Positions 42,001 through 48,000 of a stretch of 64,000 bases of DNA are shown piece by piece. Position 1 is the stretch's first letter; every line of letters begins with the position of its first letter. The position numbers were made by a program. The stretch is from Candidatus Aenigmatarchaeota archaeon (GTDB lineage Archaea; Aenigmatarchaeota; Aenigmatarchaeia; QMZP01; QMZT01), in NCBI GenBank assembly GCA_016932215.1, contig JAFGDH010000031.1:1-64000 (forward strand), given 5' to 3'.

Positions 42001-45000
42001 TCCCCGAGGGATGATGCCCTTTCAATCAATGGCATTACTCTTTCTTTTATGTATATTTCAGGATCAAACTTTCCTTCGTTGTATTTCATACAATCTACTT
42101 GTGTTATTTTTCGGTGATAAAACATAAAAAAACATATAAAAACCGGCCCGCGTAACCTTTAAATACCCATACGTTACATACTAGTTCTTATGGCGAAGTC
42201 GGTTATACTTGATTTCGACGGAGTCCTTGTGGATTCGTTCGCTTCCGTCTACAAAATCTACAAGGTGATAGGAAAGAAACTCAAGGTGAGTATCCCTCCC
42301 TCCAAGAAGGCTCTTGGGGATTCTTTCGCGGGGGATTACCGGGAACTTTTCATGAAGATCGGCATCCGCACACGCAAACAGGCGGAAAGGGCCGTGGATA
42401 TTTTCAGGAAGTACAGCAGTAAATACCCCGGGATGAAGAGGCTTTTCCCGGGAGTCAGGACGCTTCTTAAGACGCTCAGGAGAATGGGCTACAGGATAGG
42501 AATCGTTTCTAATAATTATCAGGATCACATAGAAAGGACGCTCAAAGAGATAGGCATACGCAAACACATAGACGTGGTGGTAGGGGTGAACGGGCTGAAG
42601 AGAATGAAACCCGATCCTGCGCAGATATTCAGGTGCATGAAAAAGCTGGGATCCACGCCGGAAGAGACGGTTTACGTCGGCGACATGGAGGTCGACGTCC
42701 TAGCGGCGAAGGCCGCCGGGGTCAGGATGGTCGCAGCCACATACGGGGTCCATTCTGAAGAAAGGCTTTCCAGGTTCAACCCGGATTTCATGGTAGGCAG
42801 CCCGAGAGAGATACTGAACGTGGTTAACTGATTTCATAACGTGTAGTCTTTTCCTAGGATTTTTTTCGCGATTATCTCGTGATCGCCCCTTAGAAACCCC
42901 TTCAGCCTGTAATTTATCCTGCAAGAAAGGTAATTCCCCAGATCTGCCTTCTGGCCGGGATCCTTCATCGTCAGGTATTCCCAGCCGAGCGAGAAAATGT
43001 TGTCTCTGACGGGCATTGTTAGTAGTGGATAATAAGATTTTTATTGTGAGTATGTAACTAAAGTTCCCTCCATTTCCTGCTTCCTATGACGTCTTCCGGC
43101 TTCCTGGGATTTTTTCCGTTCGTGTCGGTCAGGAGACCGTCTTCCGTGATTAAAAATTTATACCATTGCGAGAAACAAACTTCAATATGACTGCTCCTGA
43201 TCTGCCCAGTGTTGTAATGATGCTGGAATGCTTTGTATCCGAAAAGCTCTCTGCCCATAGCGTATTTATATGGGTAATTTTTTTAAGCCTTGGCGTTTCC
43301 AGCATGCAAGGGCTGGAACATGTCCTGAATAAAATACTTTTTTCCAACTTTCATTATGGGTAAACCGATGGAAGATCCGGAAAAATTTGACAGCTACCAA
43401 TACAGGGATACCGTTTTTGTGACAGGTAATCTTAACCTTTACCTGAATGATCTGGAATATTATTTCAGGAACAGCGCACAAGAGTTGGAAGATAGCGAAA
43501 GACATTGTTTAAAACATCTTCGTCATCTCAGAAGGGATATAGAAATGCAAAAGAAAGGATATGGGTTTTTTCCTGGTATTAAGGATAATTACGGGTGCCC
43601 CTTCCCCATAGATGAGAATAATTATAATGACGGGTTTGAATGGCTTGAAAAAATGCTCCGGTTCAGAAAAAACCAGTACAGATCACAAAGGATAAATCAG
43701 GGAAAAATACTGAGAGTTACTGAAGACGGTGATCAAATAAATTCCCTGGAAGTCACTAATTTCGGTCACAGGAATCTGATCGTCAGGATGGCTTTTGATC
43801 CTGAATATTCCGGTGGCAGCATAAGGATGAGGGTTTTTGAGAATACCGGGAATTACGGCTATATGTGCGGATCCGAATCCTTTGCAGAGCATGCTTCCTT
43901 TTTGGATGGCTTGAACGGAATCGTTGAGACTGAGAAAATTGAAGGAACATGCTTAATTCCCGGTTTGAGTGATTATCTGGCAAACAACAGGATCAGGAGG
44001 AGCAGGCTGAGGCTGAAAAGACCTGCTTTCGAAACTATAGATATCGGTGATAGTATTGCGTATTCAATCCATTTCCAGGATGCCCATTCGGAAATGGTTA
44101 AGATATGCGGCGATGCATCCCGGAAACCGGTCTGGCTGAAATACGACAGCAAGACATGGTCACCCGGGCAGGGGGAGGTTATGATCAGGGATCTGCTGGG
44201 GGTTTTAGGTGTTGGGATAGACACCGGCATAGGTTACAGGGATTGCTATTCGTGGGTTTGGGTTTCACCGAAAAATGAGGAATCAATACCAGAAATGGTT
44301 GAAAAAAACGTGTTCCGGAAATGCATCAGAAAGGATGGCCTCCCGGTTCTTGCGGCAATTTTTGAAAGAACAAATGAGCTCAGAGACTTATATGGTAAGA
44401 ATTTTTATCCCAGATTCACTGTGAGGGAGGCCTCAAAAAGGAGCGGGGTGCCAATGAACCACACAAAGAGGCTTATGGATGATTTAACGGGAGTTTTGGC
44501 ATTCGCGATTGATCACAGGCAGCACAAATGGTTTATACCCAGGACAATGCTGGGATTATCTGAAGAAATTCTGGAAAGATACTATTATTAGACCAGCTTC
44601 TTCCCTTCCGCCTTCATGGCGTCAGAGAACTGTTTCACCCTGGATTTCATGTCCTTCAGGTGCTCGAAGGCCGTTCCCACGTGGACCCCGTTGGCGCCTG
44701 CCTTGACCAGGCCGGCAGCTTGTTGCGGCGTGCGGACGCCGCCAGCGTAGTGGTAAAGGGTTTCAGGGGAAATCGCCTTCCTCACGGCCGCTATGAACGA
44801 GGGATCGGGCGGAGAAGGAGCTCCAGAACCGGAATCGGTGATTATTATCCTCATCCCGAGCATCTCCGAGGCCAGCGCGTACTGCGCGGCTATGTACGGC
44901 TTGTTCCTGGGCAGGAGATTGGCGTCGCCTATGTATCCGACGGCCTGCCCGGGCTCGACCACCAGATATGCTGTCGGGATGGCTTCGATTCCCATCTTCC

Positions 45001-48000
45001 TGACTATTACCGAACCCAGAACCTGAGCCTGGGAAATCCAGTACGGGTTCCTCGAGTTCATCATGCTCATGAAGTAGATCGCGTCCGCGTGCTTCGAGGT
45101 CGTGCCTATGTTCCCCGGGAACAGCAGGACAGGAAGCGAGCAGCTCTCCTTTATCCTCATTATCGTCTGGTCGAGTATGTCCCCCTGCGCCGAAGCGGAA
45201 CCGCCGACGAGAATTATGTCGGATCCCCCCTCCTGCGCCTCCCTGGCCATCTTGCCAGCCTCTTCAGGCGTCTGGTCGGGAGGGTCTATGAGGGACATGA
45301 GATAGCATCCCTGTTCGTTCCTTTTCTCGATGAGATACTTCTCAACCTTTCCGATTTTCATAACTTTAGTATGTTGGCCGGATTTATATAAATTGTTCAC
45401 CGTCGTTGGTCGTTTTTGGGGTCGGGTAAATTTATCGATTGTCTAACTGCAGAGACGACTTACACCGGCCTGTTCAAGTCTTCATTGGAAATTTAACAAT
45501 TTATATCCTCCGGAACAAATGAAATTATATGATACTGATAACGGGTGCTACGGGTTTCCTCGGGGGTCACATCGTCAAGAATATAGCCGAAAAAAGGAAC
45601 GACATTCGAATTCTGGCGGTGGATTACGAGAATGCGAAGATGATGTATCCCAATTTCGAGGTCGTGAGGGGGGACATAGTAACGAAGGATGGGCTGGAGG
45701 AGGCCTGCAAAGACGTGGACACGGTGGTTCATCTCGCAGGCATGGTTTCCTATTCAGCCAGCAAGAAGCTTATCAGCATGATAAACTACGAGGGAACGAA
45801 GAACCTGCTCGAGGCATGCGTGAGAGCAGGCAGGTTCATATTCTCTTCCTCAGTGTCCGTTTACGGCGAAATAAAGCCGGGTGACATCGCTGACGAGGAG
45901 TACCAGAGGAATCCCATGAACCCGTACGGCCTTTCGAAGCTGGAGGCCGAGGAGGAGATAATCAATTCAGGCATACCATACGTCATTTTTCGCATAGCCC
46001 CTGTATATGGCAGGGGTTCTCCCCAGTGGATGAAAAACCTAGGAATGCTGGAAAAAGGCTTTCCCATACCGAAGACGGAGAACATGACCCACATAGTCCA
46101 CGTTTCCAACCTTGCTCACGCATTCGGGCAGTCTCTTCGGGGGGATACCGGCATATTCAACATAGCCGATCCAAAACCGGTAAAATTCGTAGACCTTGCC
46201 GAAAGCCTGGTCACGCTGCTCGGGAAGAAGCCAAGGAGGCTTCCCGTATGGATGGTCAAAGCCTTCGCGTTCGCCCTCAGAAAGGAAAAGTACATTGACG
46301 TTCTCACGATGAACAGGAACTACGACATAACCAGGGCGATGAAGAAGCTCGACTACATGCCCGATGACAATATGTCCCAGTGGCTGAAGGAAATGGTGGA
46401 GTGGTACAGAACGAGATAGAAATAACGAAAGCATTCGAAAATAAAAGAAAAAGAAAAAAAGAATAAAGAATGGCGTTTTATCCGCCAATCTTGAACATTT
46501 TCGTTCCACATTCTGGACATACACCCTTTGTTGCCTTCTTTCCGTTCTTGAGTGTCACGCCCTGCGGATCCTTCATTTCTCTTTTTGCACGGCATTTAAC
46601 ACAATATGCTTCTGTCATTTTTGGTCCCTCCTTTGGAGATTTTTGCTTATTTTATGCTTTTTTGGTTTATAAATGTCTTTTTCGTGAAAAAACGGGAAAT
46701 ATCGACGTTATACTGACTGAGGGGGGGTATAAACGATAGGTTTTTAAGTTATTCATCCAATAGAAATAGAGAAGCTAATGCTCTGTTTTTAATTGCGGCA
46801 TCAGGCTATGTTTTGAGTGGTGAATCGTGTGGCAGGAGAATCTCGTGAATACGGTCACTGGCCGGGGATAGTGCAGATGAGAACCGGAATCCCTAGCTGG
46901 AAGTGCTCGAGGTGCAACTTCGTTTTCAAGGGTGATGATGCCCCTAAAACGTGTCCGCTTTGTCACAAGGACGCGGAGTTCGAGATGATAAAGGACTACA
47001 GGGACTTCTCTGACATAGACATGGACTAAAAGGGAATGACAGCTTGAACCAATTAATGTTAGCTGTCTCGTACTTTTGGTTCGAATAACAAACTTTCTGA
47101 GGTTTATACAGAAATTCAAATCTTATTATAGGATGAAAATTAATTAATTGTATCGGGGTCCGTCTTAGTGGCTGTGCGGGGTGTCCTTCTGAGCAAAAAA
47201 ATCGGGAAACGGGAAAACATCGTGGAGAAAATCGACAAGAATTCCATACTTGACGGTATGTCAGAACTGGTCGCTTTGCAGGATACCAATCACACTATTT
47301 TTTGGGTGAACAAAGCCGCTGCAGATTCACTCAAATCGAAGCGAAAGGATTTGATAGGCAAACATTGTTACGAGTTATTGGCACGGAAGAAAGCACCGTG
47401 TGATAACTGCCCGATTGAAATATCTAAAAAGACACGGAAACCCCATAAATCCGAGATTAAAACATATGACGGGAGGATGTGGTCGATTTCCTCATATCCC
47501 ATCAAGGATTCGAACGGAAGATTGATCGGTTTTACTGAGGTCAGTTATGACATAACCGAGAAAAAAACTATGGGAAATGAATTAAAAGAGAGCGAGATAA
47601 AATTCAGGCGGGTATTCGAGAATCTCCCTTTCATATCCTTCATTCTTGACACCAAAGGAAATCTCATCAGCGGAAACAAATACGCTGAGAATCTCATCGG
47701 ACTCAAAACCAGGGATTTCAGCGGGAAACCCTTCTCTTCTTTCGGGCTGCTCGATAAGAAGGGGCTGTTGAAGGCATTCTTTGAGTTCAGGAAGAACCTG
47801 AAGGGAAAAATTACAGACAAAACTGTTTATGATATCAAAACAAAAGACGGGAGAAAACTGACGGTTGAGCTCATGGGAATACCGATCAACGAGGATGGTA
47901 AGGTTGTTAGTGTTCTTGATGTGGGAAGTGACATCACGGAAAGCAGAAAAACACATGATAAAATTATCGAGAGTGAGAAAAAATATAAGTTCCTCGTTGA

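What a model noticed while it worked through the whole genome (the two positions that open the first line are those of the whole stretch)
44588..46419. An SDR enzyme stands in for glycerol-1-phosphate dehydrogenase beside GGGP synthase
The genome has the archaeal lipid pathway (mevalonate route, GGGPS, DGGGPS, CarS) but no G1P dehydrogenase (EgsA) and no Swiss-Prot match to G3P dehydrogenase or glycerol kinase. An extended short-chain dehydrogenase (g1173, labelled 'epimerase') sits head-to-head with GGGP synthase and occurs across the order where EgsA is missing, the pattern of a non-orthologous replacement that supplies the glycerol-phosphate backbone.
Evidence so far: Order, 91 genomes: GGGPS 81, EgsA 34, this SDR subfamily 50-51. 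Of the 81 GGGPS genomes 47 have only the SDR, 26 only EgsA, 2 both, 6 neither; Fisher P 2e-11 over all 91. The SDR is within 800 bp of GGGPS in 45 of 49, EgsA in 21 of 28. Swaps inside genera: G088/G038, G084+G052/G086, G066/G074, G087/G065. EgsA 0 of 23 in this family. Catalytic S108, Y133, K137 and R155, R263 are invariant in 85 homologues; nearest solved folds are only 20-25% identical. No glycerol enzyme titles in swissprot.tsv.
(Added by a program. Inside this text positions count along the whole contig: contig position 1 is position 1 of the stretch shown here. "Call 12" and the like, gene names such as g00115 and contig names such as C1 are that model's own, and its searches are not shown. 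The text may have been shortened before it was handed on; [...] marks where a part breaks off. The agent that wrote the report below was given it as the finding of a first reader that could run no searches.)

Follow-up and report, generated by a model that had tools for sequence, protein, structure and literature searches.

The report
EgsA-free archaeal lipid backbone module
Many small-genome archaea that lack the usual enzyme for the glycerol backbone of their membrane lipids carry instead an ether-forming enzyme with a rebuilt substrate pocket plus a partner reductase, and the pair likely attaches the lipid tail first and sets the backbone's handedness afterwards, an untested route that would explain how these cells make membranes.

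Summary
The gene pair and the SDR/EgsA exclusion are confirmed. In the order (91 genomes), the 82 with GGGP synthase (GGGPS) split 51 SDR-only, 26 EgsA-only, 2 both, 3 neither. A plain swap is too simple, because the GGGPS changes too. SDR-linked GGGPS lack the Tyr proposed to fix G1P handedness and carry His/Gln on strand 8 (50 of 50); the Tyr-type enzymes of EgsA or SDR-less genomes keep Tyr/Val (30 of 30). The split repeats in a Micrarchaeota-labelled class (68 of 69 read; the exception is the one EgsA-like, SDR-less genome) and an Iainarchaeota-labelled class (29 of 29 versus 9 of 9). SDR-GGGPS fusions exist. Partner SDRs share Arg263 and score best on lipid-associated families (HpnA, OleD). 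Best mechanism (0.45): GGGPS likely prenylates DHAP, then the SDR reduces the lipid-linked ketone. Rivals: G3P route (0.25), plain G1P supply (0.15). No activity or chirality was tested. This 89%-complete assembly lacks the DGGGPS orthologue. Nine literature searches found no description; this scan noted the pair twice before on other genomes (e1-9800720, e1-9937200).

The parts
44588..45361 (-). Variant group II GGGP synthase (257 aa from ATG 45361; the ORF finder extends it to GTG 45400)
   Evidence: TIGR01769 204 bits, NF003198 288 bits; AF2 model pLDDT 93.5, TM 0.88-0.91 to 4MM1_A/6JO3
44834..44842 (-). Strand 6 motif I174-T175-D176 in place of canonical Y-L-E
   Evidence: Alignment to 4MM1; strand E172-176 in model
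44681..44683 (-). His227 on strand 8, two residues before the G-T phosphate loop (Val in canonical enzymes); facing the pocket is inferred
45383..45392 (-). TATA-like box TTTATATAAA 22 nt before ATG 45361 (promoter role inferred)
   Evidence: sequence
45500..45505 (+). TATA-like box TTTATA 24 nt before the SDR ATG (promoter role inferred)
   Evidence: sequence
45529..46419 (+). Partner extended SDR, 296 aa
   Evidence: PF01370 E 1.9e-29, PF01073 E 7e-27 over residues 3-231; AF2 pLDDT 96.4
45850..45939 (+). Catalytic S108, Y133, K137
   Evidence: invariant in 116 of 116
46315..46317 (+). Arg263, signature of GGGPS-partner SDRs; candidate phosphate binder (inferred)
   Evidence: invariant in A1 and A3; 29 of 29; absent in the 6 non-partner SDR rows of 270 aa-scale alignment

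Best explanation
The two genes form one exchangeable module that replaces the EgsA + GGGPS pair, and it likely works in reversed order: the rebuilt GGGPS would join geranylgeranyl diphosphate to the free hydroxyl of dihydroxyacetone phosphate (DHAP), and the SDR would then reduce the lipid-linked C2 ketone with NAD(P)H to geranylgeranylglyceryl phosphate. Shown: the co-segregation, the residue changes, fusions, intact catalytic residues, a DHAP source and no G1P or G3P source found. Inferred: the acceptor, the order, the cofactor. Unknown: the handedness of the product; unchanged DGGGPS leans weakly to the normal G1P form.
For: (1) Tyr lost and His/Gln gained in 50 of 50 SDR-linked GGGPS, Tyr/Val kept in 30 of 30 Tyr-type enzymes in the order; 68 of 69 read in the class of G091; 29 of 29 versus 9 of 9 in the class of G094. 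(2) The review PMC9385802, section 7, names this Tyr and Glu as proposed determinants of G1P stereospecificity. (3) G123, the only genome of its 111-genome sample with EgsA-like genes and without the SDR, has a GGGPS 57-61% identical to variants and at most 46.5% to Tyr-type enzymes, nested in the variant clade yet with Y-L-E. (4) Six SDR-GGGPS fusion proteins, 60-85% identical to each other. (5) The partner SDRs' best NCBIfam E-values are HpnA, OleD-type 2-alkyl-3-oxoalkanoate reductases and SdmB, ahead of GalE; OleD reducing a ketone on a long-chain lipid is recalled. (6) No acid among the six commonest residues at position 30, and Arg at 31 in 61 of 104 rows, which suggests NADPH (rule recalled). 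(7) DGGGPS shows no column that tracks module type (23 versus 20 proteins) and is 78-81% identical across within-genus swaps. (8) TPI is present; GpsA in 1 of 91.
Against: No enzyme activity was measured. No model held a substrate, and the geometry of Tyr and His227 is inferred. All family scores are far below cut-off (HpnA 167 versus 368 bits), and structural neighbours are tied extended SDRs led by nucleotide-sugar enzymes (Z 26-31). A His/Gln could equally bind a mirror-image hydroxyl. Four genomes keep an intact SDR with EgsA, two of them with a Tyr-type GGGPS. The variant clade seems to have one origin (SH-aLRT 95-96), so most of the correlation is co-inheritance; the reversal is one case with AU p 0.048. 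Downstream enzymes are reported to be lax about handedness, which weakens point 7.
Confidence: 0.45

Rival explanations
1. Mirror route: the SDR reduces free DHAP to sn-glycerol-3-phosphate and the rebuilt GGGPS is selective for G3P, giving isoprenoid ether lipids on the bacterial-type backbone.
For: Moving a hydrogen-bonding residue from strand 6 to strand 8 is what an enantiomer switch could look like. The lost Tyr is a proposed stereo-determinant. M. maripaludis GGGPS already takes G3P with only eightfold lower preference. CarS is reported indifferent to handedness.
Against: The SDR's nearest named families are lipid-associated. DGGGPS does not co-vary. The one GpsA-bearing genome in the order (G026) still keeps the SDR, a single case.
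Confidence: 0.25
2. One reading: the SDR is a non-homologous G1P dehydrogenase (from DHAP, or from D-glyceraldehyde-3-phosphate), and the GGGPS changes are a lineage mark that leaves G1P use intact.
For: Mutual exclusion with EgsA in three classes; phosphate loops and the Mg-binding Asp are kept; DGGGPS unchanged.
Against: Does not explain loss of a Tyr kept in 124 of 145 readable representatives together with an exclusive His/Gln, nor the Tyr in nested G123.
Confidence: 0.15
3. Another acceptor or role: the variant GGGPS prenylates glyceraldehyde-3-phosphate or 3-phosphoglycerate (as MoeO5 does), or the SDR is an accessory or repair enzyme and the backbone comes from a host.
For: MoeO5 shows the fold can change acceptor. 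SDR kept in four EgsA genomes. A co-culture study saw no lipid difference between a Micrarchaeon with its host and the host alone (PMC8975820). Variant sub-types differ (Glu or Asp; first Tyr lost in one), so not all need share one substrate.
Against: A different prenylation site would predict a changed DGGGPS (not seen). Host supply does not explain near-universal single-copy retention, fusion and exclusion with EgsA.
Confidence: 0.15

Closest known systems
Canonical archaeal route: EgsA/AraM (PF13685, NF002022) + group II GGGPS (M. thermautotrophicus, PDB 4MM1)
   Same: Same TIM-barrel prenyltransferase (about 44% identical, TM about 0.9), same genomic slot, same downstream DGGGPS and CarS
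   Different: No EgsA; Y-L-E becomes I-T-D, I-L-E or L-T-D and strand-8 Val becomes His/Gln; the redox enzyme is an unrelated SDR
Eukaryotic alkyl-DHAP pathway (AGPS, then Ayr1p/DHRS7B reductase) - recalled, not from a call
   Same: Proposed logic: ether bond on DHAP first, NADPH SDR reduction second
   Different: Different ether-forming enzyme and chain; classical rather than extended SDR; homology not tested
HpnA (TIGR03466), OleD (NF042422/3), SdmB (NF052578): 3-beta-HSD-like extended SDRs
   Same: Best, near full-length family matches of the partner SDRs
   Different: Scores far below cut-offs; partner SDRs have an invariant Arg263 and sit beside GGGPS
MoeO5 (PDB 3VK5)
   Same: GGGPS-fold enzyme with a changed acceptor, 3-phosphoglycerate
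   Different: Only 19% identical; antibiotic pathway; no SDR partner known to me
UDP-sugar 4-epimerases (GalE type; the database label)
   Same: Fold and S-Y-K triad
   Different: Lacks the acid after strand 2 and has Pro158 and Thr187 where GalE-type enzymes have Asn and Arg/Lys (alignment; roles recalled)

Membership tests
GGGP synthase (TIGR01769, group II) | Profile score over cut-off and TIM-barrel fold | tested here: met
   204 versus 161.55 bits; TM about 0.9 to 4MM1/6JO3
GGGP synthase (TIGR01769, group II) | Mg-binding Asp and phosphate loops | tested here: met
   D26, G178, S179, G207 invariant in 42 variants
GGGP synthase (TIGR01769, group II) | Strictly conserved Tyr/Tyr/Glu of the G1P pocket (PMC9385802) | tested here: not met
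   Window enzyme has first Tyr, then Ile and Asp
GGGP synthase (TIGR01769, group II) | Prenylates sn-G1P | not testable with these tools
   needs an assay
G1P dehydrogenase EgsA/AraM | Fe-ADH-type sequence family (PF13685, NF002022) | tested here: not met
   No such match for the SDR; none in the genome
G1P dehydrogenase EgsA/AraM | Reduces DHAP to sn-G1P | not testable with these tools
   needs an assay
Extended SDR superfamily | TGxxGxxG motif, S-Y-K triad, C-terminal lid domain | tested here: met
GalE-type nucleotide-sugar epimerase | TIGR01179 cut-off; acid after strand 2; Asn after the strand-6 Arg | tested here: not met
   69 versus 262 bits; Ala30 and Pro158
HpnA / OleD / SdmB | Profile cut-off | tested here: not met
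   Best 167 versus 368 bits (HpnA), 123 versus 580 (OleD) for member 1; resemblance only
Acyl/alkyl-DHAP reductase (Ayr1p/DHRS7B) | Reduces a lipid-linked DHAP | not testable with these tools
   functional analogy recalled; needs an assay

The most novel reading that the evidence does not exclude
Most Micrarchaeota, most Iainarchaeota and over half of this Aenigmatarchaeota order build isoprenoid ether lipids on the bacterial-handed sn-glycerol-3-phosphate backbone, whether through free G3P or by reducing geranylgeranyl-DHAP from the other face, and lineages switch handedness by swapping a two-gene module. That would break the lipid divide inside Archaea.
Probability: 0.35. Interest if true: 0.95.

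Novelty: new variant of a known kind. Interest (0 to 1): 0.8.

Why it matters
G1P dehydrogenase is treated as the hallmark of archaeal lipid synthesis. A 2025 study (PMC12892359, passages read) found it lost in the ancestor of Micrarchaeota and Iainarchaeota while GGGPS, DGGGPS and CarS are kept, and concluded the Micrarchaeota ancestor could not make a membrane. This module fills that gap with two named proteins that are predicted soluble or peripheral, so the question becomes a test-tube assay. If the DHAP-first route holds, it is a second way to build archaeal lipids and removes one argument for host dependence. If the product is G3P-handed, the lipid divide fails within Archaea.

Tried and rejected
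Nucleotide-sugar epimerase label: rejected on cut-off and residues. Structure search of the SDR did not separate the rivals; the top 50 rows lie at Z 26-31. Helix 238-261 is no more amphipathic in partner SDRs (mean moment 0.51) than in the six non-partner SDRs (0.44-0.68), so it is not used as evidence. A DGGGPS change tracking the module was sought and not found. GpsA as an alternative partner in SDR-poor variant genomes G156, G175, G180, G194: not found; G156 and G180 have partial SDR hits, G175 and G194 have none. Weak PF13685 hits under 55 bits were not counted as EgsA; the one checked is an Fe-ADH. Complex prediction of SDR with GGGPS was not available, so binding is untested. The 2006 AfGGGPS structure paper was not held. 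Names for other Tyr-less lineages were mostly absent. The careful SDR tree did not finish; the quick tree was used.
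Full report
Observation. The window holds a GGGPS-family gene at 44588-45361 (-) and an extended SDR at 45529-46419 (+), head-to-head. Each start codon has a TATA-like box 22-24 nt upstream (promoter role inferred). Homologue names place the genome in Aenigmatarchaeota. In the 89%-complete assembly I found HMG-CoA reductase, a polyprenyl synthase, CarS and TPI, and did not find EgsA, GpsA, glycerol kinase or GlpD. 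The DGGGPS orthologue was also not found: the congener's protein hits at 29% at best, although both congeners have it.

Recount in the order. Over 91 genomes the SDR is in 55 (52 above 280 bits plus three divergent ones beside GGGPS), EgsA in 35 (PF13685 above 70 bits) and GGGPS in 82. The 82 split 51 SDR-only, 26 EgsA-only, 2 both, 3 neither, and the SDR lies within 800 bp of GGGPS in 50 of 53. Genera g28, g29, g36 and g44 each hold an SDR-only and an EgsA-only genome. The Fisher P of 7e-15 overstates, because kin are not independent.

The GGGPS changes with its partner. Against M. thermautotrophicus GGGPS (4MM1) the window enzyme has I-T-D for Y-L-E on strand 6 and His for Val on strand 8. 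The review PMC9385802 (outline and section 7 read) names two Tyr and this Glu as proposed determinants of G1P stereospecificity. My residue count on the 4MM1 chain (Y172/E174) differs from the review's numbers, so the match rests on the motif. In the order, 50 of 50 SDR-linked enzymes with the site in view lack the Tyr (Ile 45, Leu 4, Val 1) and carry His (46) or Gln (4); one more was truncated. All 30 enzymes from EgsA genomes plus G060 and G090 keep Tyr and Val. G074, counted as 'neither', is a variant cut at a contig start. Among the best 150 library representatives, 124 have Tyr, 21 do not, 5 are gapped, and His/Gln occurs only in 11 of the Tyr-less ones.

The module is DPANN-wide. The best 80 of 570 confirmed loci in genome contigs, selected for likeness to my query and mostly labelled Micrarchaeota, are all Tyr-less; 78 have His/Gln, 52 have an SDR within 3 kb and none has EgsA there. 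In an even sample of the class of G091 (111 genomes at least 85% complete; unpublished G169 left out, so n = 110), 107 have GGGPS, 103 have the partner SDR at E 1e-55 and 1 has EgsA-like genes. Of 102 with both, 69 lie within 1 kb. That SDR threshold overlaps paralogue scores (196-242 bits), so a few distant low-scoring hits may be paralogues. I read the motif in the 30 best and 39 lowest-scoring main copies: 68 of 69 are variant; the middle-ranked ones were not read. In the class of G094 (41 genomes), 29 have the SDR above 220 bits and all 29 a variant GGGPS; 9 have EgsA beside a Y-L-E enzyme; 2 variants have no SDR hit and 1 genome has no GGGPS. Two EgsA genomes there have weak SDR hits; the one I read lacks Arg263.

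A natural reversal. G123 is the exception in its class: EgsA-like genes (217 bits on NF002022, below cut-off), no partner SDR and Y-L-E. With six pocket columns removed its GGGPS is 57-61% identical to its nearest variants, at most 46.5% to Tyr-type enzymes, and nests in the variant clade (SH-aLRT 99; AU p 0.048, borderline). This single case suggests the pocket tracks the substrate supply and is not a neutral lineage mark. Otherwise the variant clade looks like one origin (182 of 184 His/Gln rows in one clade), moved about as a cassette.

The SDR. The catalytic triad is intact. Arg263 is invariant in 116 close homologues, 42 diverse partners and 29 further ones and absent from the six non-partner SDRs aligned. 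Six natural SDR-GGGPS fusions exist, probably from one event (only the 7995 best candidates were scored). Best family matches are HpnA, OleD-type reductases and SdmB, all far below cut-off. The residues after strand 2 suggest NADPH (rule recalled). Structure searches give only tied extended SDRs.

Mechanism. A rebuilt acceptor pocket with intact phosphate and Mg sites, a compulsory reductase of lipid-associated kinship, a DHAP source, no glycerol-phosphate source found and an unchanged DGGGPS fit best with prenylation of DHAP followed by reduction (0.45). A G3P route fits the pocket equally well and the SDR's kinship less well (0.25). Plain G1P supply leaves the pocket unexplained (0.15). Other acceptors or an accessory role take 0.15. 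Against all tidy readings, G042 and G062 keep an intact SDR with EgsA and a Tyr-type GGGPS, and G023 and G024 keep it head-to-head with EgsA with no GGGPS found; these may be leftovers of module replacement. None of the chemistry was tested.

Literature. Passages read: PMC12892359 (G1PDH lost in the Iainarchaeota/Micrarchaeota ancestor; it reports araM in several Micrarchaeota orders, which my sample showed in only one genome), PMC8975820 (Ca. Micrarchaeum harzensis appears to lack G1PDH), PMC6431249, PMC8407114, PMC4244643, PMC5889666. Nine searches showed no description of a Tyr-less GGGPS or an SDR partner; most hits were seen only as listings. Subscription papers and all supplements were not seen and may bear on novelty. 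The eukaryotic alkyl-DHAP analogy and the OleD and GalE residue roles are recalled. Two earlier notes of this scan describe the same pair on other genomes; I saw only their one-line summaries, after forming my reading, and they are not independent support.

Verdict. Real, widespread and not found in print: a new wiring of two known enzyme families. Interest 0.8.

Noticed in passing
L113:4106-4957 (G023); also G024:C45, G050:C37, G002:C2: A cis-prenyltransferase-like protein (weak PF01255, E 7.5e-5) occurs in 4 of 91 genomes, all with EgsA and no GGGPS found, and in 0 of 82 GGGPS genomes, beside or near a distinct DGGGPS type. Candidate non-homologous replacement of GGGPS itself.
   Followed up: partly
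G000:C16:41328-43390 (L287): UbiA-family gene head-to-head with a geranylgeranyl-reductase-like gene, near the polyprenyl synthase; it is not the DGGGPS orthologue.
   Followed up: partly
window 56398-59147 (-): Two tandem UbiA-family genes downstream of an HMGL-like (homocitrate/isopropylmalate synthase-type) gene.
   Followed up: no
L121 (G076:C9), L122 (G086:C1): SDR paralogues without Arg263 come in pairs beside a UbiA-type gene and, in G086, a GtrA-like gene; by eye a lipid-linked sugar donor cluster (labels recalled, not scanned).
   Followed up: no
L354 (G207:C22) and L265 (G142:C6): Genomes with a variant GGGPS plus a second, divergent Tyr-type copy.
   Followed up: no
P0137, P0147, P0152, P0159, P0212: Other Tyr-less GGGPS lineages outside the His/Gln clade, mostly unnamed.
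   Followed up: partly
L113, L116, L117, L119: An ftsY-like gene (label recalled from its N-terminus) recurs beside the SDR or EgsA in G023, G062, G042 and G066, hinting at one ancestral site for both modules.
   Followed up: no
window 37447-39683 (+), 42190-42831 (+), 43356-44591 (+): PGK and type II GAPDH about 5 kb away, a HAD phosphatase, and a 411-aa ORF with no Pfam or NCBIfam match whose stop overlaps the GGGPS stop.
   Followed up: no
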